A DNA stretch of 64,000 nucleotides. Origin: Rhopilema esculentum. Lineage: Eukaryota. Below the pieces are notes generated by a model. It worked only from the letters and a program-made list of their open reading frames with translations, did not search any database and had not been told where the DNA came from. How positions within the stretch are numbered: the first letter of the stretch is position 1; the number at the start of each line of letters is the position of its first letter. This document shows, one piece after another, positions 6,567 to 32,821 of the stretch. The stretch is from NCBI RefSeq assembly GCF_013076305.1, contig NW_027019299.1, positions 9,808,265-9,872,264 on the forward strand, read 5' to 3'. The translations under genes and the position numbers were made by a program.

Positions 6567-6812
6567 GAAAAGGTAAATGATGAGCCAAATGCCAAGAAAG
6601 GGGTCAAAGGAATTCTTAAAGCTATTTTCACAGCCCCTGAATTGCTATTCTGCATGTATGTGTTTGGTTTGATGCTCCATTTGCCACTACTGCATCAGTA
6701 TGTTTACATGAGGTTCAGTCAGGAAGAGAACTTTCCATACCACTATTCTGCAGCACATGGCAGCTGTGGGAATCATCAACTAAACAAAACAATGAAGGCT
6801 TTGCAAGAAAAG
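6567..6812 (+). CDS. SLC46-like MFS transporter paralog 1, exon 2 (TM1 plus extracellular loop)
   Basis: Acceptor gaacAG|GAAAAG, donor AAAAG|gtagat, phase 0/0. EKVNDEPNAKKGVKGILKAIFTAPELLFCMYVFGLMLHLPLLHQYVYMRFSQEENFPYHYSAAHGSCGNHQLNKTMKALQEK. Confidence 0.8.
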
Positions 6813-7358
6813 GTAGATTTATAACTTGTTCAGGTTTTCTCAAAATTTATCAGCCAGTTTTGCATACAGTTTTTCATTGATGAAATCAAAAGTTTACTGG
6901 ATGTTTAGTGAAAACAAACATAAGTTCCTTATTTTACTATTTTTTACCTAAAAGACTGCAATATTTTGTGAAATGCTACTCCCAGCAGGGAATATTAATG
7001 TTTACTGGGTAATGTTCTAAACCATGTTTTTCTATGGAAGAGAAGGGGTGGGGTAATTTTACAGTAGCATGGTACTAGGGGCGTGTCATTTTAAACAAAT
7101 ACCCAGAAATATTGGTATTATTTTTTTAATAACATTACAGACCCATATATTTGAAGCAGCTAATGTGGCCAATAATACCACAAACAAAGGCAGAAGAATG
7201 CAGAAGAAAGTGAAAGACACAATCTACAGAATTCTCAATATGTGGATATATGTGACATTCAATGTTGTGCAACAGATCATTAAACTTTTGTTATTTCTTT
7301 ATTAATTTAACCATTGGCCTTTTTGCGCCTTTATTCCTGGTACTTTTCTTTCGATTAG

Positions 7359-7671
7359 GTCCAAGGGAAGAGTGCTCGCTTTCAGATAGGTCAAAGTTTG
7401 TTTACCACCATTCCATCTTTAGTAGTGTGTCTCTATCTGGGAGCATGGTCAGACGTTGTGGGAAGAAAGCCAGTCGTTATTCTGGGTACACTTGGCACCT
7501 TGCTAGAGACAATTGTTGTCCTACTGACGATGATGTTGGATCTTCCAATCCGTGTTGTGTACATTGGGTCTTTTTTAAATGGCATGGGAGGCTATTTCAC
7601 AGGTCTCATCCTTGCAGTCATGGCTTACATTGCAGACACAACATCACCAGACAAGAGAGCTCTAAGACTAG
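7359..7671 (+). CDS. SLC46-like paralog 1, exon 3 (TM2-TM4, MFS signature GAWSDxVGRKP)
   Basis: Acceptor gattAG|GTCCAAG, donor CTAG|gtatgt (phase 1). ...LYLGAWSDVVGRKPVVILGTLG...YIGSFLNGMGGYFTG...AYIADTTSPDKRALRL. The MFS motif-A-like G-x-x-SD-x-x-GRK(R)P matches PCFT/SLC46A1 LGAWSDSVGRRP. Confidence 0.85.
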
Positions 7672-7864
7672 GTATGTGACTGAATTTTTCTGGAAATATT
7701 GTAAGAAATTTTCAAAATTTGAATGGCAGTAACAATGACCCCTTATGTTCTGCACAGTTTGGGCCAATTGTTCAAGTTTCTGACATGCTATCCAGGCTCT
7801 TTTTTGATGATTTGTTGGAGAGTACTTAAATTGAAAGGAGTGGTGGCTTTGACACTAGAAAGCA

Positions 7865-8009
7865 GGAAGAGAGGCAACCAGGAAGAGAGGCAACCAGGAA
7901 GAGAGGCAACCAGGAAGAGAGGCAACCAGGAAGAGAGGCAACCAGGAAGAGAGGCAACCAGGAAGAGAGGCAACCAGGAAGAGAGGCAACCAGGAAGAGA
8001 GGCAACCAG
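7865..8009. repeat. 16-bp minisatellite (GGAAGAGAGGCAACCA)x9 in intron 3 of paralog 1
   Basis: Perfect tandem copies. ORF-track entries 7723-8019, 7788-7973, 7826-8101 and 7855-8037 are its translations. Confidence 0.95.
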
Positions 8010-9431
8010 TCACTGCTGATAGTACCATCCAATTCATCGTTTTCCTTTAATTCTGGCAGATAAGATGTTGAATGAAATTTGGAAGCTGAAAACAATTGCA
8101 AGAAAAATTCTGAGAACGACTTGAGATGAGCAAGGGTTTAGTTACAATAACAGTTCTCAGGGGCGAAGGCATTATTTTTCTAAGGATTCTTTCTGACAAA
8201 AAATGCCAATAAGATAGAATAAGACAATTTTCTGTTCTCTTATTTTGTCTTGCTGCTACTGTAGATTGATTCTGGACTTGTAGTCGATGCATTTGGTGGA
8301 ATTTTCTGCTCATACGAGCTTGTTTTACAATATAAATAGATTTTAAATGGATTACGAAGATTACAGCCATTCCATGGATTGGCTACAAAAACCACAGAAT
8401 AATAAAATAGTTGAAATCATTTACTCCTCAAGTTCACCATTTTCCAATCCAGTGGCGTAGCTTTACACTGGACCCAAGACAGAGGAGGCTAGCTGGGCCC
8501 ATTCTGTGGACCGTAATAATGAAATCTATTCTATAGTAATTTTCTTATTCTGGAGTCTAAGTTCATTGTCAAGCGAGAAGTCTCTGGGGCCCAGCCTCGC
8601 TCTCGGCAGTAATTTAACTTTGAGAACATAGAAAACATTTAGGTTCCTTTTCACTATCCAGTAGTCGATTTTACCGCCAAACTAAGTATTTTGTGGAGCA
8701 ATTGAAGATTTACCGACCAGCCCTACCCCCCCCTCCCCCTCCCAACTAGCTACGCTACATCCTGGTTGCATCAGAGCATCATTAAACTGATTAACCATCT
8801 CTTTCGCCCAGGGTAACTACGCTTCTGACCATAGAATGTTCCTTGGTTATTCAACAATCAAACGTGCTTACAGACGAAACAAATATGGAGGCCATCGCCC
8901 TCCTACTTCTTCTTTGCTATACCTAGCTTCAGTATCATATGGTACCAATAAGCCAGCCCCTAAATTGAGTTTTTTCATTTCTTTTTAAGTTTTTGGTGTT
9001 AACCCAAAAAAATGTATTTATAAGTTGAAAGGCAAAATACAATCTTCCTGAACTTCTGAAAGTGTTAGGAGAAAGAGAAACACAAAGGTAGACCAGACCT
9101 TATTCTTATTGTTGTCAAAGTAGAGTTGCGTGAGATCACAATCAAGTGTGCTAATTCGTTAGCTGGACTGATAGCAATTCATGAAATAATGTAAGCGAAA
9201 CCTTGAAGCCTAGCTTTGACATAATTCACTTCGAAGCTCCTTCAAAAAGAGTCAGACAGCAAGCAACTCTTTTATTTAAAAAAAAATTGCAAAAGTTTAC
9301 AATTTGAACCTTAGCTTTTATTCCTCTCACATAAATCTCCCTAAAACGTAATTCTTGCCTTGCATTTTATTGCAAAGTTGGAAGAAATATTTATCTCAGA
9401 AGAGTACATTAATTTTTTATTCGGTTTCTAG

Positions 9432-9628
9432 GTATTATGGAATGTGTAGTTTTCGTAGGAGCAACATTAAGCAATTTCATCAGTGGACATCTTATCAGCA
9501 ATTATGGCTTCAAAATACCGTATATTATTGTCGTCGTTGCTGTCGGTATATCTTGTCTTCTCGCTATATTTGCGATGCAAGAATCACTCAAAAACAAACC
9601 AGTTAAATCAGCCGGGTGCTTCAACATG
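9432..9628 (+). CDS. SLC46-like paralog 1, exon 4
   Basis: Acceptor ttctAG|GTATTATGG, donor ACATG|gtatgt. GIMECVVFVGATLSNFISGHLISNYGFKIPYIIVVVAVGISCLLAIFAMQESLKNKPVKSAGCFNM. Phase 1 to 0. Confidence 0.8.
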
Positions 9629-10108
9629 GTATGTTTAATTCAGTTACTTTAATTAAAAATCTGGAATTTCAAACCCATTTATAACCACAAGCTATTAATG
9701 TCTGGCTAGCTACATGAAAATTTTTGATGTGTTTACACGCGTTACAACTATGAAATAGAACTTCTTTGATCATATGCTGTTTCTATAGAAGCAGAATCTA
9801 GAGAGATCTGGAAGTTTAATCAAAGTTTGGTAACACAAAGGAGGTAATTTCGCCAATATTTATGAAGGGGAAAGGAGATTGATTTAATTGGAAATCATTG
9901 GAAATGCTCTCGTGCTATTTACTAGCCTGAGCAGTACTCATGATTGAGAAATTTAAAGGACATTAATTAGAGAAGACTGGTAGAGTAGAAGGACAGTGAT
10001 TGATAGAGTAGAAGGACAAGGGCAGTGACTGTAAAGTCAGGCCTTTTATTTTTTCTTGGCCAGTTGCGTTAGGGTATTACGGATCTTATTATTGTTTGTT
10101 TTTTCTAG

Positions 10109-10460
10109 GCCTGTCTGAAGTACCCGCTACAAGTATGGCGCACCCTTTCAATGCCACGCCCTGGAAAATGGAAGATCGTTGTTCTTATGCCTGCCACACT
10201 TTTCGTTAACATGCTCTCGATGGGCATTAGCTCGCTGATAACGCTGTACCTCATGAATTCACCTTTCTGCTTAAGCCCAATCGAAGTTGGATATTTTTCC
10301 GGCACACGCTTATTTCTCATGGGTATTGGTGCAGCTGTTGGCATTAAGTTGCTTGGCCTTTTGATGCAACCCCACTTCATCTCACTAGTGGGAATCATGT
10401 CCTATTTTGCTTTTTACACTTTGCTGGCCTTTGTAAAAGATTCGAAGACAGTATATATAG
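10109..10460 (+). CDS. SLC46-like paralog 1, exon 5
   Basis: Acceptor tttctAG|GCCTGT, donor ATAG|gtatgg. ACLKYPLQVWRTLSMPRPGKWKIVVLMPATLFVNMLSMGISSLITLYLMNSPFCLSPIEVGYFSGTRLFLMGIGAAVGIKLLGLLMQPHFISLVGIMSYFAFYTLLAFVKDSKTVYI. Phase 0 to 1. Confidence 0.8.
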
Positions 10461-10768
10461 GTATGGATCAAAACTACTTGAATTACTGTTTTTAGGTTGT
10501 TTTTAAGTACACTAGAAAAACTCGATTTATTTTGACATTGTAAAGTTGCTTTGGCTTGAAAAACAATTTTTCAGGTTTATCTTGACTATTTTTTAATACT
10601 CTTTAGTAAAAAGACTATACTCATTATCATCATGATCATGATCATCACCATCATCAATTGCAAAAATCGAGTATTCGTACCAAGAATGTACCGATTCGTA
10701 CCATGGTAAGAATCGGTACAGCTGTATCTTTAGGATAGTATTTCACCGCAAATCCTCTCTTTCTACAG

Positions 10769-10852
10769 CTTGCTTGCTTGGCGCCTTGTCTGGCACAGCT
10801 AGTCCTATTTTTCGCAGTATACTGTCAAAGACGGTCTCTTCAAACGAGCAAG
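10769..10852 (+). CDS. SLC46-like paralog 1, exon 6
   Basis: Acceptor ttctacAG|CTTGC, donor GCAAG|gtaact, phase 1/1. (A)CLLGALSGTASPIFRSILSKTVSSNEQ(G). Confidence 0.8.
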
Positions 10853-11222
10853 GTAACTTGAAAGAAATTTCAAATATACTTATTAGTTCGTTTTCGAGCT
10901 GCAATTCCTGCCGAAATTCCTTAGAACGCCCTGTTGCTAAAGTATTCTTTTAAAAAGCAACTCCTTCCCCTCTTCCCGTTACCAATGTTGACCCTTGTAA
11001 ACTATCTGATAGGAATCAAATGGACAACCCCGAAGCTCTTAACATTATATACCCAAACAACATCGTTGGAAAGGAGGGGGGGGGGAAGAAAACACTATTA
11101 GCAAAATGTGAACAATTTAATGTAGTTTGCCAAGACCTTTTAAGGAGATTGTGCATTAAAGTTCTGCCTGAAACAGACTCAAAAATGTGGAAAAAGTAGT
11201 TTCGCAAATCTCTTTTTTGCAG

Positions 11223-11382
11223 GTGTTCTGTTTTCAGCCGTCTCGTCTCTAGAGATGTTGGCTGTTTTTCTTGGTAACTTTCTGTTCAATGCTGTTTATC
11301 TGGTCTTAAATCGTCATGGAAAACCTGGAGCCATTTTCTTCCTGGTGGACGCTATTTTGCTGATACCATTCTTCTTGGCTTT
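11223..11382 (+). CDS. SLC46-like paralog 1, exon 7 (last two TMs)
   Basis: Acceptor ttttgcAG|GTGTTC, donor GCTTT|gtaagt. GVLFSAVSSLEMLAVFLGNFLFNAVYLVLNRHGKPGAIFFLVDAILLIPFFLA. The donor sits inside an in-frame TTG-TAA, so an unspliced transcript would stop here. Confidence 0.75.
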
Positions 11383-14210: not shown

Positions 14211-14304
14211 TCACTGAATTGCTCCCTGTGCAGTTTTTTACCGAGCTTCGTCTTCAAGCTTCTTCCTGCCTGGGATGCAGGTACCCTCAGAGTTTGATAA
14301 AGTC

Positions 14305-14307
14305 ATG
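14305..14307 (+). CDS. SLC46-like paralog 2, first coding exon contributes only the initiator ATG
   Basis: gataaagtcATG|gtgagtagg has a Kozak-like context and a strong donor. The same context gataaagccATG|gtaagtagg is present in paralog 3. Phase 0 joins to exon 2 at 16546. Confidence 0.55.
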
Positions 14308-16545
14308 GTGAGTAGGTCTATGTTTTTGTATAAGTAACCAGTTAAATGTGCTCATATGAAATGCATTCGACTTCTGACTAAAAACTGTCTTAAGACAATT
14401 CATGAACAATTTGTTTTGATTTCTGCATGTGGAGGTTAACGATGGCAGACACAATCTGGACCGAAGCAATTGTTCTTCAAAAATGGAGGCATCGATGGTT
14501 TTCAAAGATTTAGGCAAAGCTGACTTTTTGAAAATCCAACTGACATACCTAGTGGAAAACGAGAAATCACCTCACCGCCTTTCACTTAAAAAATCTTTGA
14601 CCTTTTCTATCATTTCTTTTTGTTATGATCAATACGAGGCTAGGCCCTTGCATACTTCTCTCAGCGGTTGATCCAAGAAAAAAATTGGGGTTGCTTGTCT
14701 GTTACTTTCAAAACCTTTGACCGAGGGTAAATTTTAACGATTCATCCAACGCCAGGGGGTGGGGCTCTGCTGCTAGTCTGTACTCCAGACCCCCAACATT
14801 CAGGGCCACAGACAATAAAGCAGCATCATCAAAATGTCTGCAAAAATTGCAGCTTGACGGGGTCAAGAGGAAGCTTTATTTACATCGCTGGCCCCTCCAG
14901 TTTAGGACCAATGGCACGGGCCCTGGAATTAGTTGGATTGTGTGTATTTCATTATTACTTTGAAAGTTATTTAAAATGAAATGTCTAAAAAATTATTTTA
15001 ATGTTCTTGGACAACAGCACACATGAAATCCCAAGTTTCCAAACAATGGTAATAAAATTCCATTGTGTTCTTTGAAACAATAGTTCTTCCCACATGCATT
15101 GAATGGTTGCGTTGCTTGTCTCAGGAAAATGGAATAAAACAGCAAAGATGCAAATGCAATTACCAATTCTCATGTGCTTTCATAGCTCTGTCCTGAGTTT
15201 TTACTATGTGTCCATCGGCTAATTCAGTAAACATTATGTTTTTTTTCTTACCTACATTGTATCCTATCTTGCAATTTACATTTATTATTGACGCAATCAG
15301 CTTGATATGCTGAAAATAATTTTCAAACTTGAGTTTGAGTTTGAGCGATCTTCATTGGTTGTCTATAATTTTTAGCCTGCCTACCCGCTGGCTAAAGCTG
15401 TTTTTATTTTTAGGCAATATTCATTTCTGTCTTATATCCTCACTTTGGACTGGATTCTTGCATGTGGAAAACGTGGAAAAAGCGTTTTATTGAACAATTT
15501 TTGCAGACATTTTGCTGATGCTGCTTTATTGTGGAATTTGGTTCAATGTCATGTTTTATCTAAAGAATACTCTAGACAAATAAGTTGAGCTGACTTTAAC
15601 ATTTTATTTAGCGAAAAAGTGGGGAGGCCATAGCCCCTGGCCTCCTATGATGCGGGCACTGAATTCTATTTAGTGTACTTTTCATCCGACACGTTTCAGA
15701 TGATGATAGTTTATAGCCAGGTTTAATTTGAACTGAATGGAAGCATGGCACCCACGTTTATCTGGCTATGAACGACCTTAACAAGACTTAGGTGTAGTCT
15801 TTGGTGCTACTGTACTGATTTACCGAAACAAATAATCAAATTTCTATATCAGCGAGTTTTCTTAGTTGCAATTGATCAGTTATACTAATAGCCTATGGAG
15901 AGCGCGACCTACCATGCTAATCATGCTCCCATTGGCATCGTCTTTGTAATCTTGTTCTTGTAAAATGCAGAGTCCAGGAAAGTTGTCAACCTTCCTCCGG
16001 CCAAGAAAATCTTACTATAAAACCTTATTTTTAATGGGTTTAAAATGGGCGTTGTCAGAAAACATGGGACTCAGCTGGTCTTGATCTCCTTTTTTGAAAC
16101 TCTCTTTTTTAAACTTTTCCAAAAATTTGTAACTGGTTTTCAATTCTAAATGTTTTTAGAGACAGATGTAAAGTAAAATATATATATCGATTGCTAAAAA
16201 AAGCGTGCCATAATTCAAATAAATAAATTATAAAAAGTTAGTATCGTTTTGCGAAAATATTCATATAAAAAATGCAGGAGGATTTCGATTGGCGCTCATT
16301 TTTTATTGCTTTATTTTGAAAAACAAAGAATGTAGAATTTAGCAACTTCCACAAGTATTCAAATTTTTGGTCACCTTCTTCAATTTCTCTTTGTTTCTAC
16401 AACCTTCCTCTGGCCAGTGACCGCGGGACCGAGATGTTGTCCCGACTCTGGTAAAATGTACTTTTTGAGACTGAGTGCAAAAAACATTTATCTTGTCTCT
16501 TATTTAGAAAATTGGCAGTTCAAATGCACCTTTTGAAATTTACAG

Positions 16546-16791
16546 GATGAAGCAGAAACTGAGCCAAAAACTAACGAAGGAATCAAAGGTATTCTCAAAG
16601 CTGTATTTACAGCCCCTGAATTGCCATTTTTCATGTATGTGTTTGGTATGATGCTCCATATGCCACTTCTGCAGCAATATGCTTACATGAGGTTCAGTCA
16701 GGAAGAGAACTTTCCATACCACTATTCTGCAGCACACAGCACCTGTGGGAATCATCAACTAAACAAAACAATGAAGGCTTTGCAAGAAAAG
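16546..16791 (+). CDS. SLC46-like paralog 2, exon 2
   Basis: Acceptor atttacAG|GATGAAG, donor AAAAG|gtattg. DEAETEPKTNEGIKGILKAVFTAPELPFFMYVFGMMLHMPLLQQYAYMRFSQEENFPYHYSAAHSTCGNHQLNKTMKALQEK. Confidence 0.85.
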
Positions 16792-17744
16792 GTATTGTAT
16801 TACAGTATGTAATGATATGAACAAGAAGGGGTTTCTAAAAATATTTCAAAAACCAATAGCACAATTTGGTATTAGTAATCTTATGATATAAGTAAGGGGG
16901 ATTAATTTGGTTTTGAAATGTAAGCAGGCAATCTACAGTTTCTTTTATTTCGTTTTTATGCTTTAACATAGCACTCTAAGACCAACAATACGGCAATGCC
17001 TAAAAGACATTCTGAAGTCTTCTCTCAGGATTGATTCCAGGGGCGATGTGGACGTTGAATTTTTTAAGGGGGGGGGGGGGTGGAGGGATTTCCTGAATTG
17101 CAGATATTGGGATCACACCTTCCACTAAGAGTCTGACTAATATAGCACGAAAATTCTGTCTCTTGCGTTTAACTACACAAACAGAGCACAAGATTTCAAA
17201 TGTTGCCCATGCCTAAAAGTAATTTTGATTTTGCTAGATTTTTTCAATGCTCCTTGGTTATCAACAATTTGTTATAGAAAGCTTTGGTTAAAGTTAGACT
17301 TGGGTTTTGATACAATGACATGTAGGTAGGTATGTATGCAAATTCCACCTTTATTGGTTTCTCATTACCGAGGTGTGTCTGCGCTTGAAATGCTTTCAGT
17401 TCATTTAAGCTAAAATAAAATGTGCCACAAAACATTTAAGTTGATTCTCCAGATATGCGTTGGCTCTCATAAAAGTAGAAGTCTCAATTTAATTCAAGGC
17501 TGCATAAATGTAAAGTGTTCTGAATGTCCACAAATTCAGAAGTTTTGCAACTTTTAAGCTGGGAATTATTTAACCTATAACATTGAAATTTCAGGTATTT
17601 GCTTTTTTTAGCCAGGTAGTTCTAAAGAGAATCAGTTAACAAGCTTGGTTTACTAGATATAGAGTACCCCTACAGACATATTCGATTTGTACATTGGACA
17701 CCCTAATTGTTGATAAAACGAGCAAGAGGAAGTTTTGTATGCGT

Positions 17745-17840
17745 GAGGCAACGCTCCGCCCTGGAGTCAAAGAGCATGCGCATGACACGAAGTTATTATT
17801 AAGCATGCTCTGTGACTCCAGGACGGAGGGTTGCTTCATT
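17745..17840. repeat. LINE-tail-derived short repeat forming a near-perfect 32-bp-stem hairpin (intron 2 of paralog 2)
   Basis: GCAACGCTCCGCCCTGGAGTCAAAGAGCATGC ... GCATGCTCTGTGACTCCAGGACGGAGGGTTGC form an inverted repeat with a ~20-nt loop. The left arm is ~90% identical to 3565-3600, which abuts the LINE RT C-terminus on the opposite strand. Confidence 0.7.
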
Positions 17841-18112
17841 CAATTGAAGACTTTCGCTCGCTCGTCTCCCCAACAACTACCTTCTTTCCTTGTCCGGCAA
17901 TTCTCCATATTAGTGACCAGTGAACAAAATTTGCATATCGAAATTACCGAAATATCAAATGATAAGTTAATGTTAACCCATAATTTTCTGTTTCTATGTT
18001 TGCTAGGTAGTTCGAAAAATTGGGCCTAGATCATAAAACGTTGATACTTTATTAATTTGATCTTTTATTCGCACTACTCTATATTTAAACCATCTTTAAT
18101 TCTTCTTGATAG

Positions 18113-18425
18113 GTGCAAGCAAAAAGTGCTTACTTCCAGATAGGCCTAACTTTGTGCAATACTATTCCATCCTTGATCGTTTGCCTATACCTTGGAGCTT
18201 GGTCAGACAATGTTGGTAGAAAGCCTGTGATAATTCTTGCAACACTTTGTAGTTTTGTAGAGACAATTTTTGTTTTACTGACAATTATGTTTGATCTTCC
18301 GATCCTGGTGGTATACATTGGGTCTTTTCTAAATGGCATGGGAGGATATTACACAAGCCTCACCTTTGCGGTAATGGCCTACATTGCTGACTCAACTCCA
18401 GCAGATAAAAGAGCCTTGAGACTAG
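18113..18425 (+). CDS. SLC46-like paralog 2, exon 3
   Basis: Acceptor cttgatAG|GTGCAAGC, donor CTAG|gtattt. VQAKSAYFQIGLTLCNTIPSLIVCLYLGAWSDNVGRKPVIILATLCSFVETIFVLLTIMFDLPILVVYIGSFLNGMGGYYTSLTFAVMAYIADSTPADKRALRL. Confidence 0.85.
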
Positions 18426-18682
18426 GTATTTGTTCTTTTCATTAAATATTCTATAGAATGCTTAATACTAAATTTCTCAGTACATTTGTTTTACGATTTT
18501 AGTTGCACAGTCAATTGTTAGCATTATCAAAGTTTTCGATGATAAAGTTTTGTTAAAGTAAGATCAGTCATATCGATGACTGACGAGCTCATCATTTTTT
18601 ATCGATCTTTGGCTTCAAAATGAGCACAATGGGGTTCTAACCGACGTGTCCCATTATTGAGTGTGGTCATAGTTGATATTTA

Positions 18683-19400
18683 GGCCCCGTTCACACGGGA
18701 ACGCAATCGTTCCGTTCCGTTCTTCTCCTTTCCGAAAAGCGTAACGCTCAGGGGTTGTGTTCACACGGGAACACTTCAAATGACATCGTTCCGTTCCAAA
18801 AAGTGGAACGATAAAATAAGTGATACGAAAAGTGGAACGGTACGCAATCGTTCCGTTCTGTTTCCGTGTGAACGCGCAGAGCTGGTCCAGAAATTGGAAC
18901 GATGAGAGTTTTGCCTTTGGCGCATGCGTCTGTGTTGTTGTTCTGGGAAGCAAAAGGTGACAATAATAACTCAGCGCAGAAAATGGAAGATTTCAAAAAC
19001 ACCATTGGCTGAATCTCGCCGTTAGTCCATTTAAAAGATTCAACACCATTCTGCAGACCTTGAAATTCCTTCCTTTTAGGGTTGGCTTCCATTTGCCCAC
19101 GAGCTTGCTTATTTTGGGGCGACTTTGTATTCTTCATTTATTCAAATTGTTTGAAAAATTAGAGATAGCTCAGAGATAAATCGAAATGATGAAATCTATC
19201 TCCATTATGGACATGCGCATTAAAAATCATTTGCTTATTTTGGCGCGCAAATTGCAGAACGGGACGATTGCGTTCTCGTCTGAACATAAACAAAAATCGA
19301 TAGGCAATCGTTCCGTTACCGTGTGAACAGTATACTTTTCCGTTACAGAAACTGGAACAAAAATGGAACGGAACGATTGCGTTCCCGTGTGAACGGGGCC
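18683..19400. mobile_element. MITE-like non-autonomous DNA transposon (718 bp) with perfect 36-bp terminal inverted repeats, in intron 3 of paralog 2
   Basis: Left end GGCCCCGTTCACACGGGAACGCAATCGTTCCGTTCC (18683-18718) is the exact reverse complement of the right end 19365-19400. Internal subterminal repeats cgttccgttcc/ggaacgg. No transposase ORF. Confidence 0.8.
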
Positions 19401-20423
19401 TCAGTGTGGTCTAGAGGCAGTGTCACTATAAGTTTTGAAATCCTATCTATAGAATACCTAAGCTCAATCGAATATTTTGAAAAAGGGCCATCCCCTTACC
19501 GAATCACACAACATGTTGCACTAAAACACAGCAAATTGCTGGACCTTGCGTCGAAACGTTTAATTATTGTCAAATGAAGAATTACTGTATATTTGTAAAC
19601 TTGCAAGGGCAAGTTTTTTCTCCGGCTGCGATAAGATTAAATAATCATGAACACGATTAGCTATTGTGTTTTTGATTAAGATAATGCAACAACATGACTA
19701 CAAAAAATCAGCCAGCTTTCCATTCGCAATCATCCACAACAACATCCTTTCTTGAAATGCAGTACTGATTGTTGCATGAAATATAGAGAGCGAGAAATTT
19801 AATTTTGCAGTCAGAGCATGAGGTACGGTCAATAACATAATTTAGTTGAAAAGAAAATGCAAAGATATGTTTTAAAATGTGCTTGCTGCACGGAACTGGT
19901 CTAAGCCCTATTCAGTTAAAAAAGCTACTTTGCTCTTTTGAAGGGTTGAGATCAAAGACAAGCAATGTGCTGTGGCTAAAGGATCCTGCTTAGGTCCATT
20001 GCTTTTTGTATGGTTATATTTGGTTACGCTTATCGACCGCTAGAAATATAGTGACATAGTCACAAAGTCTATTTTTTTTAATCTTAAAATCACAAAGCCT
20101 GAAAAAACACAATGAAATACGTCTAAATGAGTGAAGTTATTTAGATCTATTAGAATTTCGCCTATGATGTGGCATAACAAATATTTCCTTTCCTCCACCA
20201 AACCACAGTAAAATGGCTCTGGTGATAAAACTTTTGAACCATACCAAAATAAAAACAATCCATTAGAAAAATTCTAATCTTTCATTGATTTAATTGATTC
20301 TGCACATTTTGAGGTCTTCATTTTTTGCTCATGTGGTCAAAATTGCGCTATTTTATTTCAAAAAGGCTCGGGGATTGCCTTTTTCACCAGTTATATTATA
20401 ATCTGCGTTGATTGCTTTTCTAG

Positions 20424-20620
20424 GTATCATGGAAGCCTTGGTTTTCATAGGAGCAACAGCTAGTTATTTTGCTAGTGGACATTTTATCAGCCAATATTTC
20501 TTCAAAATTCCATCAGTTCTTCTTGTTGTTTGCCTCGGTGTGGCCTGTCTTCTTGCTATTTTTGCAATGCAAGAGTCAATTAAAAACAAAGCAGTTAGAA
20601 CAGCCGGCTGTTCCACCGTG
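20424..20620 (+). CDS. SLC46-like paralog 2, exon 4
   Basis: Acceptor ttttctAG|GTATCATGG, donor CCGTG|gtaagt. GIMEALVFIGATASYFASGHFISQYFFKIPSVLLVVCLGVACLLAIFAMQESIKNKAVRTAGCSTV. Confidence 0.85.
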
Positions 20621-21105
20621 GTAAGTTCCATTCAGTTATTTCTATTAAACAATTGGAATTTTATTTCCGTTTTTAACCGTAATAGGTTGATGTTTGGCTG
20701 CGTGACAATGTCCATTTCTGGGCTTGAATTTGTAGTGACTACTCCTTACCTCCTTTTTCTTATTTTTCCTTAACCACTTGTTTTTAACTTTGCACATTTT
20801 TGCAACAATTTTTATCTCCTCCTTAATACACAATTTCAGAACCAGGAGCAAAGCATGAAAATTTGGTCTATAAAGAATTCACACTCTAGTGCAGCAACTT
20901 TTCCTTTGCCTCCTTCGTCCCTGGGAGATTTTTCTTGTAGAGAAAGGGTTTTCACAATTAAGAATACCAATTGGAAAGAAACATATTAGATATACATGTA
21001 TTTCATGGAACGTATATTTTACACGTATACACCCTTATGTTTAGGCCAGAAGAAATAAAAAAGAGATGAAACATCAATCATGGGGCGTTTTTTCTTCTCT
21101 TTTAG

Positions 21106-21457
21106 GCGTGTTTGAAGTATCCGCTACAAGTATGGCACACCCTTTCGAAGCCAAGACCTGGAAAATGGAAGATCATTGTTTTTATGCCAGCAACTATTAT
21201 TTTGAACATGCTTTCGATTGGAATTAGCCCACTTTTAATGCTGTACACCATGAATTCACCGTTTTGCTTAAGCCCAATAGAAGTCGGATATTTCATCGGG
21301 ACACGTTTTTTTCTCATGGGTATTGGTACAGCACTTGGCATCAAATCTCTTGGCCTTTTAATGCAGCCTCACATTGTTTCATTGATTGGGATTATATCAT
21401 ACATTGCATATTATACCTTGCTGGCATTCGCACAAGACAAAAAAACTATATATATAG
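21106..21457 (+). CDS. SLC46-like paralog 2, exon 5
   Basis: Acceptor ctcttttAG|GCGTGT, donor ATAG|gtatga. ACLKYPLQVWHTLSKPRPGKWKIIVFMPATIILNMLSIGISPLLMLYTMNSPFCLSPIEVGYFIGTRFFLMGIGTALGIKSLGLLMQPHIVSLIGIISYIAYYTLLAFAQDKKTIYI. Confidence 0.85.
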
Positions 21458-21932
21458 GTATGATTTAAAACGATTTAAAAGTTTTTTGCAACTTTTATAG
21501 CAGAACAGTGCAGTTGTCTTTGCAAATTGCAAACTTCCAAAATAACACAGCACTGTAAGCACACTTTTACGTATGCTAAGTAAGCATTTTTAGATCGCCA
21601 CTAAGAGAATTCAGCAAAATTTATTGAGCAGTAGTAGTATATGATTATTTAGACTGGATAACACTGTACAATTTAAAAATTGGTATCAATACTGGTCCAG
21701 CAACCGTTCCCGTTCGCCATGGGACGAAGCAATTAAGGTAATAATCTTTTGTACAGATGTTTTGACTTTACAAAACCTCTTCTTTTACACCTAATGGGCA
21801 TGCCATCGAGGGCAGAGTTGATATTAATAGGGAGTATCTAAGATCTTTCACTCAAGATTCTATATGAAAGAACATTCTTTCGAAATAATTGTGCTTAGTT
21901 GATCATTTCTATCTAACGTTTTCTTCCAACAG

Positions 21933-22016
21933 CTTGTTTGGCTGGGGTACTTTCCGGAACAGCTGGTCCGATTTTTCGCAGTATCTTGTCGAGGACGGTT
22001 AGCCAAACTGAGCAAG
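21933..22016 (+). CDS. SLC46-like paralog 2, exon 6
   Basis: Acceptor ttccaacAG|CTTGT, donor GCAAG|gtacat. (A)CLAGVLSGTAGPIFRSILSRTVSQTEQ(G). Confidence 0.85.
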
Positions 22017-22116
22017 GTACATTGAACAATCATCTGGTTTTTATTTTTGCTCCTCATCATTATTATTTTGACGGCCTAAAATTGCATTTTTGGTCCTTAA
22101 TGTAACAAAAACTCCC

Positions 22117-22175
22117 ATCATTATCATCATCATCATTGTCTTTTTCATCATCATCGTCAGTCTTATCCAAGCGTC
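22117..22175. repeat. (ATC/ATT)n-type trinucleotide low-complexity tract in intron 6 of paralog 2
   Basis: catcattatcatcatcatcattgtctttttcatcatcatcgtcagtc. It explains ORF 22090-22416 (IIIIIIVFFIIIV). Confidence 0.8.
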
Positions 22176-22641
22176 GATCATCATAATGTCGCCCCTTGCT
22201 ATTTGTGACAATATATATCATGGGCTTCGACACAGGCTGGAACGTGGGGGGGTGGGAGGTGGGTCAAAGAAAAATTTAACACCATTAGTAAAAGATTTTA
22301 AGAAAAGCTCCTTTGTTTGCTGGCCTTCTAGGCCCCTTTTTTGTCGAAAGCCTTGTATGAATTTAGGTGGAGTGACTTGTGGTGTTGCACCAATGTCGAA
22401 CCGTTGCCTTCTGTGATGAGGGAATTTAGCCTTATGGCCTGATTTGATGTCTTATGAGTACAAATGACAATGTCTTATGGGGAAACTATTTTTTAACACA
22501 AAACCTCCTTTTTGGTATTTCCCAAGTAAGGTATTAAATAAAGTTTTAAGCATGTATCAGTATTAATGTCAATAACATTCAGCATTGGCAATTATAAAAT
22601 AGCATCGTTTGTTTTGATTTTACAAAAACTTTCCTCTATAG

Positions 22642-22801
22642 GTGCTCTGTTTTCAGCCGTCTCTTCTTTGGAGATGCTATTCGTTTTTCTTGGTAACTTT
22701 GCATTCGGCGCTGTTTATCCTGTTCTCAATAACCTTGGGCATCCTGGAGCCATTTTCATTTTGTTTGATTGTCTTTTGCTATTACCATTCCTCTTGAATT
22801 T
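22642..22801 (+). CDS. SLC46-like paralog 2, exon 7
   Basis: Acceptor tctatAG|GTGCTC, donor AATTT|gtaagt. GALFSAVSSLEMLFVFLGNFAFGAVYPVLNNLGHPGAIFILFDCLLLLPFLLN. Confidence 0.8.
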
Positions 22802-23317
22802 GTAAGTATATTATTGGTCAGTTTTAGCCTCTCGGCTACTTAAGACATCTTTGTCTACGAAGTTATAGTGCAAATGAAGTTTGAAGACATTGAGAACTTT
22901 GGGACAAGTACGCCGGACGACAGGGGCGCACGAAGGGGGCTGCCCCATTGCCCTTCGACAAATATAGCAGTTTTCTTTAATTTCATCATGCGCCCCCATA
23001 CGGAAAAAATTTACTTCATGTTCTTGATTATAATGAAAAATGAACAATTTCAATAGTGTTGCAAAGAGAATGAAGCCCCTTCTTCCGTGTAGGCCTCTTA
23101 GCGATGGATCACTGGCATGTTTTCTTCATGTCTGTAAATTTTCTGTTCAAATTTTTCTTTATCTTATCCAATATCAAAATTGTTCCTAATTTATTAGTAC
23201 ATAGTAAACAGAACTTACTGTAGAATTAAATTTCTTACGCTTTGTAATAAGTTATTTCTTCTTTCTTCATCTTATTTCGTGTATATGAAACCTGTTCATA
23301 ATTACTATTTATCCAAG

Positions 23318-23447
23318 GATATATATAAAAAGAAGAAAGAATGATGAAAGCCAAGAAGACCTTGAAGAGATTTTTAAAGTGAAAGAGGTTGCCGGTTACT
23401 ATGGCACTGGCGGCTCAAGTCCTCCGCAGTCTCCTAAAGACCGTTAA
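23318..23447 (+). CDS. SLC46-like paralog 2, exon 8 (C-terminal tail, stop TAA)
   Basis: Acceptor atccaAG|GATAT. LIYIKRRKNDESQEDLEEIFKVKEVAGYYGTGGSSPPQSPKDR*. Total CDS 1485 nt, 494 aa. Confidence 0.75.
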
Positions 23448-28953: not shown

Positions 28954-29199
28954 GATGATGTAAGAATTGAGCCCAAAACTAACCATGGAATTAAAGGCAT
29001 TCTCAAAGCTGTATTTACAGCCCCGGAATTGCCATTTTTCATGTATGTGTTTGGTATGATGCTACATATGCCACTTCTGCAGCAATATGCTTACATGAGG
29101 TTCAGTCAGGAAGAGAACTTTCCATACCACTATTCTGCAGCACACAGCACCTGTGGGAATCATCAACTAAACAAAACAATGAAGGCTTTGCAAGAAAAG
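28954..29199 (+). CDS. SLC46-like paralog 3, exon 2
   Basis: Acceptor atttacAG|GATGATG, donor AAAAG|gtattg. DDVRIEPKTNHGIKGILKAVFTAPELPFFMYVFGMMLHMPLLQQYAYMRFSQEENFPYHYSAAHSTCGNHQLNKTMKALQEK. Near-identical in nucleotide sequence to paralog 2 exon 2 plus ~70 bp of the following intron. Confidence 0.85.
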
Positions 29200-31292
29200 G
29201 TATTGTATTACAGTATGTAATGATATGAACAAGAAGGGGTTTCTAAAAATATTTCAAAAACCATAGTACAATTTGGTATTGGGATGAATCATAGTAATTT
29301 TATGAAATGAATTAGGGGGACTAATTAGATTGGATTCTCCAAGCCCCCAAAACCATTTGGTACTATAAACTTTTAACTCTTTAATTTGTGCCTTTGAGAT
29401 TATGACACAGGTTTTTGTCATTTTTTTTGCCCAACATGTCATCACTGCCATTGTTTTTTCTGCCACAAAAAACTGTCACTGTTATTGTGCAACATTCAAG
29501 TTTGTGATGAAGTTTGATGCAAAATTATTCTAAGCATCTAAACAAAGTATTTTTTCATTCAATCTTTAATAGGCCTTTAGATATATGTTAGGTTGATTTG
29601 ACCAATGATCATTACATTTCTTTGTAATCTTACCTTTGGGCAGATTTTTTATGTTACTGGCTTCAGCCTGTCATTAACTTTAAATTGTAATCATTAATGT
29701 CCATTTGGTTTGTAAACATCTGATGTTCAATTCTCATAAAGAATTTTCCTGTTTGGTTAAAAATTTTTATCTTTTTTATGCCTGAAGCAAATGTTGTAAA
29801 TGTATTATAAATGCTGAATCAAAGCAGACATATCATGTAATATTTAATGATGTTCAACAGTTTATACAATCCTGGAGGGCCACTCCCATACTTGACCTTC
29901 CTCTCATTCTTTACCTGATGGGATGTGCTGTGAGACAGGGTATCCTTTTTTCAATAAAACTTATGAGACGGGGTATTATGATATGCATCAAAATTATGAG
30001 ACAGGGTATTGAAATTAAGAAAAACTGCCAAGAACAATTTCAGTTACATTTGCTAATGGGAATTATCATGAGGTCTGGTATGTCTGGCAAAATTGTGCAT
30101 ATTTTTGGTACTCTTTTTATGGGACACTGTATGCTTTTTGGCAATTTTTTTTATAAGACAGGGTTAGGGTGCAAAAAGGTTTTCTGCACACCTTTGTCAC
30201 TTTCTAGTCAAGTGCCCCCTCTTCCGGTTACACAACTTATTAAACAATCAGCCCAATGGTGTCAGCGTTCTAGCAAACTCGATAACTCCAATTTTTTCGA
30301 AGAAATCAATGCAACCATCTCTCTCGTAACGAAGGCATCGTTAGCTATGGCAAATAACCAAATTTGCCAAATTTGTCTACCCATTATTCAAACCTGAAAA
30401 TGGGCATGTTTACTTTAATTTTAGAGAAAAAGTTAAAGTTTAAAATGATACGTTTTATTTTGCTGATTCTCCTTTCCTTTCTGCCAGCTTTACAGTACAT
30501 CTTTCTGCCAAAACCAGCTCTTTCAGCAGCATTTCATTTTTGGAAAAGAAATTAACGATTCACACGTGTTCGAAACAATCAAATTTTGTTTCTGTTTATA
30601 CAGGAACGCAATCTATCAGTTCCATTTTGTACGCGAAATGTGTTTCATATTCTGGACCAGTTCTCATGTCCACATGGAAACAGAAAGACTGCGAACCGCA
30701 CCACGTTTCGTATCACTTTTTATAAAGTTCTAAATTTTTGAAACGAGATGCTCGCGCTCCTATGTGAGCGTTCTAGCTACTTTCTGGAACGGAACGCAGG
30801 GCCTTCGCTAGCTATTGTGCTGGGGTGCTCAGGTCCCATTTCCTGAAAAGGGGCTGACTCTTCCTTTAATTGCTGGCAGTTCTGAAAATTTGCATATGAA
30901 GTATCTATTCATGGCAAAAATCCTTGTTTTCACGACGGGAAGTGGCGACCTTGAAGGAACGATAACCGATAGATTTTTCATGATGGCCAGATGAATTCAT
31001 AGATAAAATTTTTGCAGTCCTTTTACCCAATACAAAACTACACAAAAGGCAAGAGTTTGGGAAAAGCCAAGGAAGCCAAATTCTGCGAAAAATGGCGGAT
31101 CATTTTGAGATACATTATGTCCCCTGACCGAAGCATGAAGACAAAAGACTACAATCGTGTTCAGCAATAAACTAGTGTAAATTTGCTTATTTTCTGAGAT
31201 TTTTAGAAAAAATATTATTAACCATCAATATTTTTATTTATTTAAACATCGGCATTTCTCTATTTTTAGGCCTCTTTTATTTTCCTTGATAG

Positions 31293-31605
31293 GTGCAAGC
31301 AAAAAGTGCTGGCTTCCAGATAGGCCAAAGTTTGTGCAATACTATTCCATCCTTGGTTGTTTGCCTATACCTTGGAGTTTGGTCTGACAAAGTTGGCAGA
31401 AAGCCAGTGGTTATTCTGGGAACACTTGGTAGCCTTTTAGAAGCACTGGTTGTTCTTTCGACAATGATATTTGATCTTCCGATTCTAGTTGTCTATATTG
31501 GGTCTTTTTTAAATGGCATGGGAGGCTATTTCACCGGCCTCATCGTTGCAGTAATGGCCTACATTGCAGATACAACACAACCCGAGAAGAGAGCTCTACG
31601 ACTAG
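31293..31605 (+). CDS. SLC46-like paralog 3, exon 3
   Basis: Acceptor cttgatAG|GTGCAAGC, donor CTAG|gtattt. VQAKSAGFQIGQSLCNTIPSLVVCLYLGVWSDKVGRKPVVILGTLGSLLEALVVLSTMIFDLPILVVYIGSFLNGMGGYFTGLIVAVMAYIADTTQPEKRALRL. Confidence 0.85.
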
Positions 31606-31685
31606 GTATTTCTCCCATTTTTAAATGTTCTACAAAACAGGGCTCCCGGCGAAGCAAGGGGCAAGGGGGCCTCGATTGACTGAAC

Positions 31686-32425
31686 ACTCCAAGAACAGGC
31701 TGAATACCCCAAGAACACCCCCCAAGAACACCCCAAGAACACCCTAAGAACAAGCTATTAAGCGGCTGAACACCTTTTAAAACATATCAAAATCGGCATA
31801 TCATTCGAAAAATCATTTGGTCAATCAATCAAAATTAATTTTGGGGCGGAAAATATTCATTCCGCTTGCACTAGTAAACTAACTAGCGTGCACTAGCATA
31901 CCGTGACCACATAATAGTTAATTTCTATTCTATGTCGTGACCATTTGGGCAAATTAGCGGATGGGAAGAGCAATTGTTTGGAGGACAATAGGTAGTCAAA
32001 TGACATGTCGTATTTTTACATTGTCACTGGATGTGAGAGGAGAGATTTGAAAACAACGGGAAATTGCTTGAATGCACCATAGTCATAAAGGGAGTCGAAC
32101 TCGAATTTGCTCAGCGTGTACAAACCCCCGTTCACACTTTTGGCGCGCAAAACATCAGTTGATTGTAACAACATCAACATCATTAGACTTATCAGGCCCT
32201 TTCCCGCCCCAAAATTAATTTTGATTGATTGACCAAATGATTTTTCGAATGATATGCTGATTTTGATATGTTTTAAAGGGTGTTCAGCCGCTTAATAGTT
32301 TGTTCTTAGGGTGTTCTTGGGGTGTTCTTGGGGTGTTCTTGGGGTGTTCTTAGAGTGTTCTTGGGGTGTTCTTGGGGTGTTCTTGGGGTGTTCTTGGGGT
32401 GTTAAGCCTATTCTTGGATTGTTCA
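31686..32425. mobile_element. Foldback-type element: ~170-230 bp inverted arms with 10-bp subterminal tandem repeats (CCAAGAACAC / GGTGTTCTTG) around a ~350 bp spacer, in intron 3 of paralog 3
   Basis: 31740-31849 is the reverse complement of 32204-32310 (~97% identity). The outer ends carry 4-5 (left) and ~9 (right) copies of the 10-mer. ORFs 31559-31753(-), 32292-32546(-) and 32311-32598(+) are repeat translations (LGCSWGVLG...). Confidence 0.8.
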
Positions 32426-32821
32426 GTCTTTTAGAAACGACGGCAAGGGGGGCATGTCTCCAACTTTTTGCAAGACAGAACAGCTTTTTCGCAAAAACTT
32501 TTGCTTTAATTCTTACTTTCCAAATTTCGTCGGATGATGCAGCCAATGTTAAATGTTATGTTTTCGAGTACATATTTGTTTTACCTTTATCAAGATAAAA
32601 TAATAGAAGTAGTTCTATTCTTTTATCTTGCTTTTGCTATTTGAGTTGCATCGACCATATTCAAAAATTTTAAAGTTTGCAATAATGAGCAATGTGTGAC
32701 TGACTGGCTGATCATCTGTGATCGATCTTGGTAAACTTGCATGATGCCCCAAAATCATGATAATGTTGCCTGAAATTGATCCAACCCATTGTATTGTAAT
32801 GTGGTCTACTTGCTTTTCTAG

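What the first reader, a model, noticed from the sequence alone, without database searches (positions are those of the whole stretch)
16546..16860. Localized gene-conversion tract: exon 2 plus ~70 bp of intron 2 nearly identical between paralogs 2 and 3 (and partly paralog 1)
16567-16860 and 28975-29270 differ at only a handful of positions. The coding part shows 2 synonymous differences over ~200 nt, and the intronic gtattgtattacagtatgtaatgatatgaacaagaaggggtttctaaaaatatttcaaaaacca is also identical. Every other exon pair of the same two genes is only ~80% identical. The 3' ~105 nt of exon 2 is also almost identical in paralog 1 (6708-6812), with 3 differences. Identity that crosses the exon-intron boundary points to non-allelic gene conversion, not protein-level selection. 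A nucleotide-level functional element embedded there (for example a structured RNA or regulatory site) is the alternative.
Basis: seen in the sequence. Interest (0 to 1): 0.6.

Follow-up and report, generated by a model that had tools for sequence, protein, structure and literature searches.

The report
Gene-conversion patch in jellyfish transporter paralogs
Three neighbouring copies of a jellyfish SLC46-type transporter gene share a short, almost identical stretch (most of exon 2 plus the first 64 bases of the next intron), most likely because one copy recently overwrote part of another, which is a real but ordinary event in tandem gene families.

Summary
The window matches Rhopilema esculentum (jellyfish) and carries three tandem, + strand SLC46-like MFS transporter paralogs. 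Paralogs 2 and 3 differ at 2 of 265 positions across 16591-16855 / 28999-29263. Both differences are synonymous, and a 199-nt perfect run includes 64 nt of intron 2. The first 45 nt of the same exon show 10 differences, the intron beyond 16856 is about 80% identical, and the other exons are 77-92% identical. Paralog 1 shares the last 112 nt (6704-6815) with 3 clustered differences, and that identity stops 3 nt into its unrelated intron. The synonymous-site deficit survives scan-corrected permutation (p = 5e-5 for P2-P3; 0.0025 for P1). The patch has no unusual RNA folding and no Rfam match. Related transcripts from another organism show no excess synonymous conservation there. The rest of the cluster is also mosaic, with further low-divergence P2-P3 segments in exon 3 5', exon 5 3' and exon 6. 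The best explanation is recent non-allelic gene conversion, the youngest of several events. Tract length fits the published ~250 bp mean. It is a new instance of a well-known process, so interest is low. Not tested: read support for the assembly, and close orthologs.

The parts
16591..16855 (+). Near-identical patch in paralog 2 (inferred conversion tract): exon 2 from codon 16 to its end, plus the first 64 nt of intron 2
   Evidence: 2 substitutions in 265 nt against paralog 3 (16617, 16656), with a 199-nt perfect run at 16657-16855. Bounded by a difference at 16590 and an indel at 16856.
28999..29263 (+). The same patch in paralog 3
   Evidence: Ungapped register, offset 12408 from paralog 2. 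At both internal differences P1 agrees with P2, so P3 probably carries the derived states.
6704..6815 (+). Stretch of paralog 1 shared with the patch: 3' 109 nt of exon 2 plus 3 intron bases
   Evidence: 3 differences in 112 nt against P2 and P3, clustered at 6758, 6759 and 6763. Identity ends at intron position 4, and the rest of P1 intron 2 cannot be aligned.
16546..16791 (+). Exon 2 of paralog 2 (246 nt, phase 0-0). It encodes the N-terminal segment, TM1 and the first loop of an SLC46-like MFS transporter.
   Evidence: AG/GT splice sites and reading frame. Exact match to P0001, named 'SLC46A3-like [Rhopilema esculentum]'. Pfam MFS_1 E = 1.6e-20.
28954..29199 (+). Exon 2 of paralog 3
   Evidence: Matches P0002, named 'proton-coupled folate transporter-like [Rhopilema esculentum]'.
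6567..6812 (+). Exon 2 of paralog 1
   Evidence: Exons 2-7 are open reading frames. No matching protein came back from the database search.
6567..11382 (+). Paralog 1, exons 2-7 (6567-6812, 7359-7671, 9432-9628, 10109-10460, 10769-10852, 11223-11382)
   Evidence: blastn and tblastn self-comparison plus splice sites.
14275..23447 (+). Paralog 2, exon 1 coding part to the stop codon (E1 14275-14307, E2 16546-16791, E3 18113-18425, E4 20424-20620, E5 21106-21457, E6 21933-22016, E7 22642-22801, E8 23318-23447)
   Evidence: The translation of exons 2-8 is 100% identical to P0001 over the whole query; the exon 1 peptide was located in the window.
28954..37251 (+). Paralog 3, exons 2-8 (28954-29199, 31293-31605, 32822-33018, 33455-33806, 34589-34672, 36394-36553, 37122-37251)
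   Evidence: The translation agrees with P0002.
21226..21435 (+). Probable older P2-P3 low-divergence segment in the 3' half of exon 5 (P3 counterpart 33575-33784). Part of the mosaic.
   Evidence: For codons 292-369, P2-P3 pS is 0.21 while P1 pS is 0.61-0.63. Scan-permutation p = 0.03-0.04. Alignment.
18113..18199 (+). 5' 87 nt of exon 3 (P3 counterpart 31293-31379), another P2-P3 low-pS segment
   Evidence: P2-P3 pS is 0.05 (1 synonymous, 6 nonsynonymous differences) while P1 pS is 0.80. Upstream intron identity is only about 76%.

Best explanation
The patch is a recent interlocus (non-allelic) gene-conversion tract between tandem paralogs 2 and 3 of an SLC46-like transporter cluster in Rhopilema esculentum.

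Inferred mechanism: a DNA break in one copy was repaired using the neighbouring copy, about 12.4 kb away on the same strand, as template. About 265 bp was copied, from mid exon 2 into the first 64 nt of intron 2. Both flanks were left at their older divergence of roughly 20%. P3 probably gained two substitutions afterwards.

The 3' 112 nt of exon 2 had earlier been homogenised with paralog 1 as well. That tract stops at the exon edge, probably because P1's intron offers no homology for heteroduplex extension.

Exon 2 is the youngest patch in a cluster whose other segments also show conflicting divergence levels, which indicates repeated conversion. A run of identity at or above the ~200-bp minimal efficient processing segment would make exon 2 a self-sustaining conversion site.

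Shown: the identity pattern, its boundaries, its statistical significance and the mosaic. Inferred: the repair mechanism, the direction and the order of events.
For: 1. There are 2 differences in 265 nt, with a 199-nt perfect run crossing the exon-intron junction. The flanks are diverged: 10 differences in the first 45 nt of exon 2, and about 80% identity in the alignable intron after 16856.
2. The synonymous deficit is significant. pS is 0.05 in the tract against 0.28-0.50 in most other segments. Fisher p = 1.4e-4, scan-permutation p = 5e-5, Sawyer-type p = 3e-4, maximum chi-square p <= 0.003.
3. Intron identity is 64/64 against a 76% flank background, P about 2e-8.
4. P1 shares 112 nt with 3 differences. 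Scan p = 0.0025 and Fisher p = 1.7e-5.
5. The cluster is mosaic. P1-P2 pS runs from 0.05 (exon 2 3') to 0.80 (exon 3 5'). P2-P3 pS is 0.05, 0.21 and 0.12 in exon 3 5', exon 5 3' and exon 6, but 0.44-0.50 elsewhere, where all three pairs are about equidistant.
6. In the 5' part of the tract P1 varies at synonymous sites (5/22), so those sites are not constrained in themselves.
7. The tract length fits the published mean for non-allelic conversion of ~250 bp (10.1101/135152). The genes are close tandem copies in the same orientation.
8. GC3 is slightly higher in the tract (0.448 against 0.365), the direction expected from GC-biased conversion. This is weak evidence.
9. Tract divergence of 0.75% is below the species' reported heterozygosity of 1.68% (PMC7172023), so the event is recent.
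Against: - No orthologous clusters from close relatives could be obtained, so the classic test could not be run: paralogs grouping by species inside the tract and by orthology outside it.
- No reads or population data were available, so an assembly or polishing artefact is not formally excluded.
- Conversion is reported to be rare at ~80% identity (PMC3924818). A recent event in copies this diverged needs either luck or a long-maintained identity island.
- For the 112 nt shared by all three copies, the paralogs alone cannot separate conversion from nucleotide-level constraint. The end of the P1 tract falls at the splice site, which protein- or RNA-level selection would also predict.
Confidence: 0.85

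Rival explanations
1. A nucleotide-level functional element (structured RNA, an editing-site duplex between exon and intron, a splicing or transcriptional regulator, or a small-RNA target) lies in exon 2 and the start of intron 2. Purifying selection on the bases themselves keeps it identical in the paralogs.
For: - Identity covers synonymous and intronic sites.
- The 3' 112 nt is shared by all three copies and ends at the splice donor in P1.
- The three differences in P1 are clustered, leaving perfect runs of 54 and 52 nt.
Against: - Folding is no better than shuffled sequence: z = -0.28 on the + strand, -0.91 on the - strand, and +1.41 for the exon-intron junction.
- There is no Rfam match apart from a chance-level hit at E = 0.53, which lies mostly outside the tract.
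- No exon-intron inverted repeat was found.
- P1 has an unrelated intron, and it differs at 14 of 92 positions in the 5' part of the tract, including 5 of 22 synonymous sites.
- Homologous transcripts L001/L002 share only about 38% of synonymous third positions with Rhopilema in this region, similar to most other windows along the gene.
- Their own paralog pair L002/L003 shows ordinary synonymous divergence there: 5/17, 4/16 and 3/17.
- The 64-nt intron identity ends abruptly inside alignable intron.
Confidence: 0.05
2. Assembly or polishing artefact. The reference was locally homogenised, for example by cross-mapped reads during consensus or iterative short-read correction, and the real copies differ more.
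For: The published R. esculentum assembly used noisy PacBio reads, wtdbg2, Quiver and 5 rounds of Illumina correction (PMC7172023). It is not shown that the window comes from that assembly. No read data could be checked here.
Against: - The flanks are 20% diverged within tens of bases of the patch, so long reads anchor uniquely, and short reads would cross-map only if the region were already nearly identical.
- Two substitutions and an indel boundary are retained.
- P1 shows a graded, partial version with its own three differences.
- Other segments show intermediate divergence, forming a mosaic. That is expected from biology and not from polishing.
Confidence: 0.06
3. Protein-level purifying selection plus codon preference and chance. 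Exon 2 encodes a highly constrained TM1/loop-1 segment, and the identity is only the extreme of ordinary rate variation.
For: The loop is fairly conserved at protein level among cnidarian homologs (NFPYH[YF]SA..SCG..LNKT.KALQEKVQ).
Against: - Protein selection cannot explain near-identical synonymous sites (2 of 61 differ between P2 and P3; 1 of 32 between P1 and P2 or P3).
- Nor can it explain 64 identical intron bases.
- Exons with equal or stronger protein conservation, such as the FLNGMGGY region in exon 3, have pS of about 0.5.
Confidence: 0.02

Closest known systems
Interlocus (non-allelic, ectopic) gene conversion between tandem duplicates. Examples: human G-gamma/A-gamma globin genes and L/M opsin exons (from my own knowledge), HMA4 tandem paralogues in Arabidopsis halleri (bioRxiv 10.1101/2025.10.29.685298), GOT1 paralogs in Tigriopus (PMC3728101).
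   Same: - Same-orientation tandem copies about 10-12 kb apart.
- A short internal patch of a few hundred bp with near-zero divergence at synonymous and intronic sites, flanked by much older divergence.
- Mosaic divergence along the genes.
- Tract length close to the ~250 bp mean estimated for human non-allelic conversion (10.1101/135152).
   Different: - The copies are unusually diverged for active conversion (about 77-87% in exons, introns mostly unalignable), whereas most documented cases involve copies above 90-95% identity.
- One sub-tract is shared by three copies and ends at a splice site.
- No outgroup or population confirmation is available here.
Exon plus intron conservation around A-to-I RNA editing sites, where an editing-site complementary sequence in the downstream intron pairs with the exon (known from GluA2 and from insect and cephalopod channel genes; from my own knowledge).
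   Same: Conservation of synonymous sites in an exon, continuing into the adjacent intron.
   Different: - No exon-intron duplex is predicted (z = +1.41; no inverted repeat).
- P1 lacks the intron part entirely.
- No cross-species synonymous conservation was seen.

Membership tests
Interlocus gene-conversion tract | Paralogous loci that are substantially diverged outside the candidate tract | tested here: met
   Exon identity is 76.6-86.6% (E6 91.7%). dS is 0.31-0.68 in exons 3, 4, 5, 7 and 8 for P2-P3. Introns are mostly unalignable.
Interlocus gene-conversion tract | A contiguous stretch with significantly reduced divergence at neutral sites (synonymous and non-coding) | tested here: met
   2 of 61 synonymous third positions differ, against 65 of 296 elsewhere (p = 1.4e-4). 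Scan-permutation p = 5e-5. 64/64 intron bases are identical against a 76% background.
Interlocus gene-conversion tract | The patch is flanked on both sides by diverged homologous sequence (a patch, not a crossover product) | tested here: met
   Left: 10 differences in the first 45 nt of exon 2, and about 80% identity in the intron 1 end. Right: an indel at 16856, then about 80% identity over roughly 50 nt of alignable intron.
Interlocus gene-conversion tract | Tract length in the range known for conversion (tens of bp to about 1 kb) | tested here: met
   265 nt (P2-P3) and 112 nt (with P1), against a published mean of ~250 bp (10.1101/135152).
Interlocus gene-conversion tract | Phylogenetic incongruence against orthologs: paralogs group by species within the tract and by orthology outside it | not testable with these tools
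   No close relative's genome was reachable. Only distant homologs were recovered, at 50-56% amino-acid identity (P0003, P0004, L001-L003). Within the window, segment-wise pS is incongruent, which is indirect support.
Interlocus gene-conversion tract | The assembly is correct at the tract (reads span the tract plus copy-specific flanks) | not testable with these tools
   No reads were available. Exact-protein look-ups for P0001 and P0002 found no other contigs.
Conserved structured RNA or regulatory element embedded in a coding exon | Thermodynamic stability beyond shuffled controls, or a match to a known RNA family | tested here: not met
   z = -0.28, -0.91 and +1.41. Rfam gave only a hit at E = 0.53 and 20.6 bits against a gathering score of 100.
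Conserved structured RNA or regulatory element embedded in a coding exon | Nucleotide-level conservation, including synonymous sites, in homologs from other species | tested here: not met
   Third-position identity at conserved codons is 10/26 in the exon-2 equivalent, similar to most other windows. The paralog pair L002/L003 shows 12/50 synonymous differences there, not fewer than elsewhere. Caveat: these homologs are distant.
Conserved structured RNA or regulatory element embedded in a coding exon | Compensatory (covarying) base-pair changes | not testable with these tools
   The copies are nearly identical, so there is no variation to score.
SLC46 / MFS transporter gene family (identity of the host genes) | MFS fold signature and closest named relatives in SLC46 | tested here: met
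   Pfam MFS_1 E = 1.6e-20. The closest named proteins are SLC46A3-like and PCFT-like of Rhopilema, Nematostella PCFT and fish SLC46A3. The names are database annotations, not tested functions.

The most novel reading that the evidence does not exclude
The 3' half of exon 2, which encodes the first extracellular or lumenal loop with its NKT glycosylation motif and a cysteine, may be an island of persistent concerted evolution among all three paralogs. On this reading selection maintains it, acting either on an identical loop-1 sequence or on an RNA/DNA-level signal in those 112 nt, and conversion is the vehicle that spreads a favoured variant, not a neutral accident. The rest of each gene, for example TM2 at the start of exon 3 where P2-P3 show 6 nonsynonymous and 1 synonymous differences, would be held apart by diversifying selection.
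Probability: 0.1. Interest if true: 0.4.

Novelty: new member of a known kind. Interest (0 to 1): 0.17.

Why it matters
The main value is practical. Trees, dS-based dating and orthology calls for these jellyfish SLC46-like genes will be misled if exon 2 and the other mosaic segments are not masked. The case also shows that conversion can still act on tandem copies that are about 80% identical overall, possibly because an identity island in exon 2 keeps itself convertible. It does not reveal a new mechanism or element.

Tried and rejected
- Structured RNA: folding of both strands of the tract and of the exon-intron junction gave no signal. Rfam at a permissive threshold gave only a chance-level mir-2063 hit, which corresponds to a P2-only AU-rich hairpin at the tract's right edge and is not conserved in P3.
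- Exon-intron editing-type duplex: no inverted repeat was found.
- cDNA-mediated conversion: considered because the run of zero synonymous differences continues from exon 2 into the first 27 codons of exon 3 in mRNA coordinates. Rejected because the tract includes 64 intron bases, exon 3 5' carries 6 nonsynonymous differences, and P1 shows no continuation into exon 3.
- Single unequal crossover: rejected because both flanks are diverged.
- Independent genomic or transcript copies of P0001 and P0002, to check the assembly: none on record.
- Close orthologs: only distant homologs were found, namely P0003, P0004 and the JGI metatranscriptome contigs L001-L003 from an unidentified organism.
- Literature: no report of this locus was found.

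Full report
**What the window is.** The window has 36.5% G+C and carries three tandem, + strand paralogs with the same exon structure (self-blastn; tblastn; splice sites and frames).
- The translation of exons 2-8 of paralog 2 (P2) is 100% identical to database protein P0001, 'SLC46A3-like [Rhopilema esculentum]'.
- The paralog 3 (P3) translation agrees with P0002, 'proton-coupled folate transporter-like [Rhopilema esculentum]'.
- Pfam gives MFS_1 at E = 1.6e-20.
- No protein matching paralog 1 (P1) came back, although its exons 2-7 are open. No homolog of exon 8 was found for P1.
- The published genome has 36.25% G+C and 1.68% heterozygosity (PMC7172023). I cannot show that the window comes from that particular assembly.
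- Exon 2 (246 nt, phase 0-0) is at 6567-6812 (P1), 16546-16791 (P2) and 28954-29199 (P3).

**Checking the observation.** In ungapped register, P2 16591-16855 and P3 28999-29263 (265 nt) differ at two positions, 16617 T/G and 16656 C/A.
- Both differences are synonymous. At both, P1 agrees with P2.
- 16657-16855 is a 199-nt perfect run, including the first 64 nt of intron 2.
- To the left, the first 45 nt of exon 2 carry 10 differences, the last at 16590.
- To the right there is a 1-nt indel at 16856. The intron then stays alignable for about 50 nt at about 80% identity, with a 12-nt indel.
- P1 matches P2 and P3 over 16683-16794 (P1 6704-6815, 112 nt), except for three clustered differences at 16737, 16738 and 16742 (CAT GGC AGC against CAC AGC ACC: one synonymous, two nonsynonymous).
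- The identity with P1 stops at intron position 4, and the rest of P1's intron 2 cannot be aligned.
- The finding's description is therefore right. Small corrections: the left edge is 16591, not 16567, and 'about 80% for every other exon' is really 76.6-91.7%.

**Is it more than chance?**

| Test | Result |
|---|---|
| NG86 pS, tract (codons 15-82), P2-P3 | 0.05, against 0.28-0.50 in exon 2 5', exon 3 rest, exon 4, exon 5 5' and exon 7 |
| Synonymous third positions, P2-P3 | 2/61 differ in the tract, 65/296 in exons 3-8; Fisher p = 1.4e-4 |
| Synonymous third positions, P1 part | 1/32 against 91/244; p = 1.7e-5 |
| Scan-corrected permutation | p = 5e-5 (P2-P3); p = 0.0025 (P1-P2, P1-P3) |
| Sawyer-type permutation on variable sites | p = 3e-4 |
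| Two-breakpoint maximum chi-square | p <= 0.003 |
| 64 identical intron bases against a 76% background | P about 2e-8 |

The 76% background comes from the thirteen other 60-nt flanks of exons 2-8.

**Conversion or a nucleotide-level element?** Several results argue against an element.
- Folding of the tract is no better than shuffled controls on either strand (z = -0.28 and -0.91). The exon-intron junction folds worse than shuffles (z = +1.41).
- No exon-intron inverted repeat exists.
- Rfam returns only a chance-level hit (E = 0.53). It corresponds to a P2-specific AU-rich hairpin at 16841-16921 that P3 does not conserve.
- In the 5' part of the tract, P1 differs from P2 and P3 at 14 of 92 positions, including 5 of 22 synonymous sites. 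Those sites are therefore free to vary.
- For the 112 nt shared by all three copies, I used homologous transcripts recovered from a JGI metatranscriptome: L001/L002 and a paralog L003, from an unidentified organism, at 50-56% protein identity.
  - Their synonymous third positions match Rhopilema at 10/26 in the exon-2 equivalent, similar to most other windows along the gene.
  - The L002/L003 pair shows ordinary synonymous divergence there (5/17, 4/16, 3/17), not lower than downstream.
- So homogenisation of exon 2 is not a general property of these genes. The caveat is that these relatives are distant.

**The cluster is a mosaic.** Segment-wise pS varies far more than one duplication history allows.

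| Segment | P2-P3 pS | P1 pS (against P2, P3) |
|---|---|---|
| Exon 2 tract | 0.05 | 0.18-0.23 |
| Exon 2 3' (shared with P1) | 0.00 | 0.05 |
| Exon 3 5' (first 29 codons) | 0.05 | 0.80 |
| Exon 3 rest | 0.48 | 0.43-0.51 |
| Exon 4 | 0.44 | 0.47-0.49 |
| Exon 5 5' | 0.50 | 0.34-0.42 |
| Exon 5 3' | 0.21 | 0.61-0.63 |
| Exon 6 | 0.12 | 0.53-0.60 |

- In exon 3 rest, exon 4 and exon 5 5', all three pairs are about equidistant.
- The exon 5 3' segment is marginally significant on its own (scan p = 0.03-0.04).
- P1 and P3 are the closer pair in the 5' part of exon 5.
- This pattern is what repeated interlocus conversion among tandem copies produces. The exon 2 patch is the youngest event.
- The exon 2 and exon 3 5' segments are not one genomic event. 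The intron between them is unalignable apart from its ends, and those ends are at background identity.

**Mechanism and timing (inferred).** The likely mechanism is homologous repair of a break in one copy using the neighbouring copy, 12.4 kb away, as template.
- A patch of about 265 bp was transferred. This is close to the published mean non-allelic tract length of ~250 bp (10.1101/135152).
- Divergence inside the tract (0.75%) is below the reported heterozygosity of the species (1.68%), so the event is recent and may still be polymorphic.
- The earlier exchange with P1 (3/112 = 2.7%) ends at the splice site, plausibly because P1's intron offers no homology.
- Published work puts efficient conversion at about 200 bp or more of near-identity, and the rate falls steeply at ~80% identity (PMC3924818). 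This suggests that exon 2 remained convertible because earlier events kept it similar, while the rest of the genes escaped.
- GC3 is a little higher in the tract (0.448 against 0.365). That is in the direction of GC-biased conversion, but it is weak evidence.

**What remains open.**
- An assembly or polishing artefact could not be tested, because there were no reads and no second copy of P0001 or P0002 on record.
- I consider it unlikely. The flanks are 20% diverged within tens of bases, copy-specific differences survive in the patch, and P1 shows a graded version.
- The definitive phylogenetic test needs orthologous clusters from close relatives, which the tools could not reach.

**Verdict.** This is a new instance of a well-known process, interlocus gene conversion in a tandem gene family. 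It matters mainly as a caveat for dating and phylogeny of these genes. Interest is low.

Noticed in passing
window 18113-18199 (P2 exon 3 5') and 31293-31379 (P3): P2 and P3 show 1 synonymous and 6 nonsynonymous differences in the first 29 codons of exon 3 (pS 0.05, pN 0.09), while P1 is near saturation there (pS 0.80). Most of the amino-acid changes are specific to P2 (Y, L, T, I at the start of TM2). This could be an older conversion followed by relaxed or positive selection. The numbers are too small to tell.
   Followed up: partly
window 21226-21435 and 21933-22016 (P2 exon 5 3' half and exon 6); P3 33575-33784 and 34589-34672: A second region of low P2-P3 synonymous divergence (pS 0.21 and 0.12, against 0.6 for P1). 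It is probably one or more older conversion tracts. Scan-permutation p is only 0.03-0.04.
   Followed up: partly
window 10109-10230 (P1 exon 5 5') compared with 33455-33575 (P3) and 21106-21226 (P2): In the 5' part of exon 5, P1 and P3 are more alike than either is to P2, and P2 carries several private amino-acid changes. The Sawyer-type test flags the P1-P3 pair overall (p = 2e-4 penalised score; its location was not mapped). This could be a P1-P3 conversion or accelerated change in P2.
   Followed up: partly
window 41044-41228 (+): An isolated exon-4-like fragment of the same gene family: 57% amino-acid identity to P2 exon 4, 79-81% nucleotide identity over about 156 nt, open frame, and an AG acceptor and GT donor still present at its ends. 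No other family exons lie nearby. It looks like the relic of a fourth copy.
   Followed up: partly
window 16841-16921 (+): An AU-rich hairpin in P2 intron 2, abutting the right edge of the tract. Arms are at 16843-16857 and 16905-16919; -16.4 kcal/mol; z = -2.6. A weak Rfam mir-2063 hit overlaps it (E = 0.53). The distal arm is not conserved in P3, so it is probably incidental.
   Followed up: yes
window 31682-31853 and 32200-32371: A 172-nt inverted repeat (93% identity) inside intron 3 of P3, resembling a foldback or MITE. Smaller inverted pairs lie at 14812-14849/15495-15532 and at 18682-18724/19359-19401.
   Followed up: no
window 6567-11382 (paralog 1): No protein matching P1 was returned by the database search that found P2 and P3, and no homolog of the last exon was detected. 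In all three copies the exon 7 donor (TT|GTAAGT) puts an in-frame TAA immediately after the exon, so retaining intron 7 would end the protein there. P1 may use that end, or it may be unannotated or a pseudogene.
   Followed up: partly
window 6758-6763 (P1) = 16737-16742 (P2): The only three differences between P1 and P2/P3 in the shared 112 nt fall within 6 nt (CATGGCAGC against CACAGCACC; G-S against S-T). Possible causes are a multi-nucleotide change, patchy mismatch repair, or a small island protected from conversion.
   Followed up: no
window 17068-17080; 7860-8009; 1236-1491: A run of 13 G in P2 intron 2. A 64-nt-period tandem duplication in P1 intron 3. A tandem repeat with a period of about 113 nt near the start of the window.
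   Followed up: no
window about 52298-53956 (+): Open frames downstream of the cluster. One gives a weak Pfam hit to the dynein axonemal heavy chain 2/5/8 coiled-coil (PF25007, E = 3.7e-4, below the curated cut-off), which suggests a dynein heavy chain gene as the 3' neighbour.
   Followed up: partly
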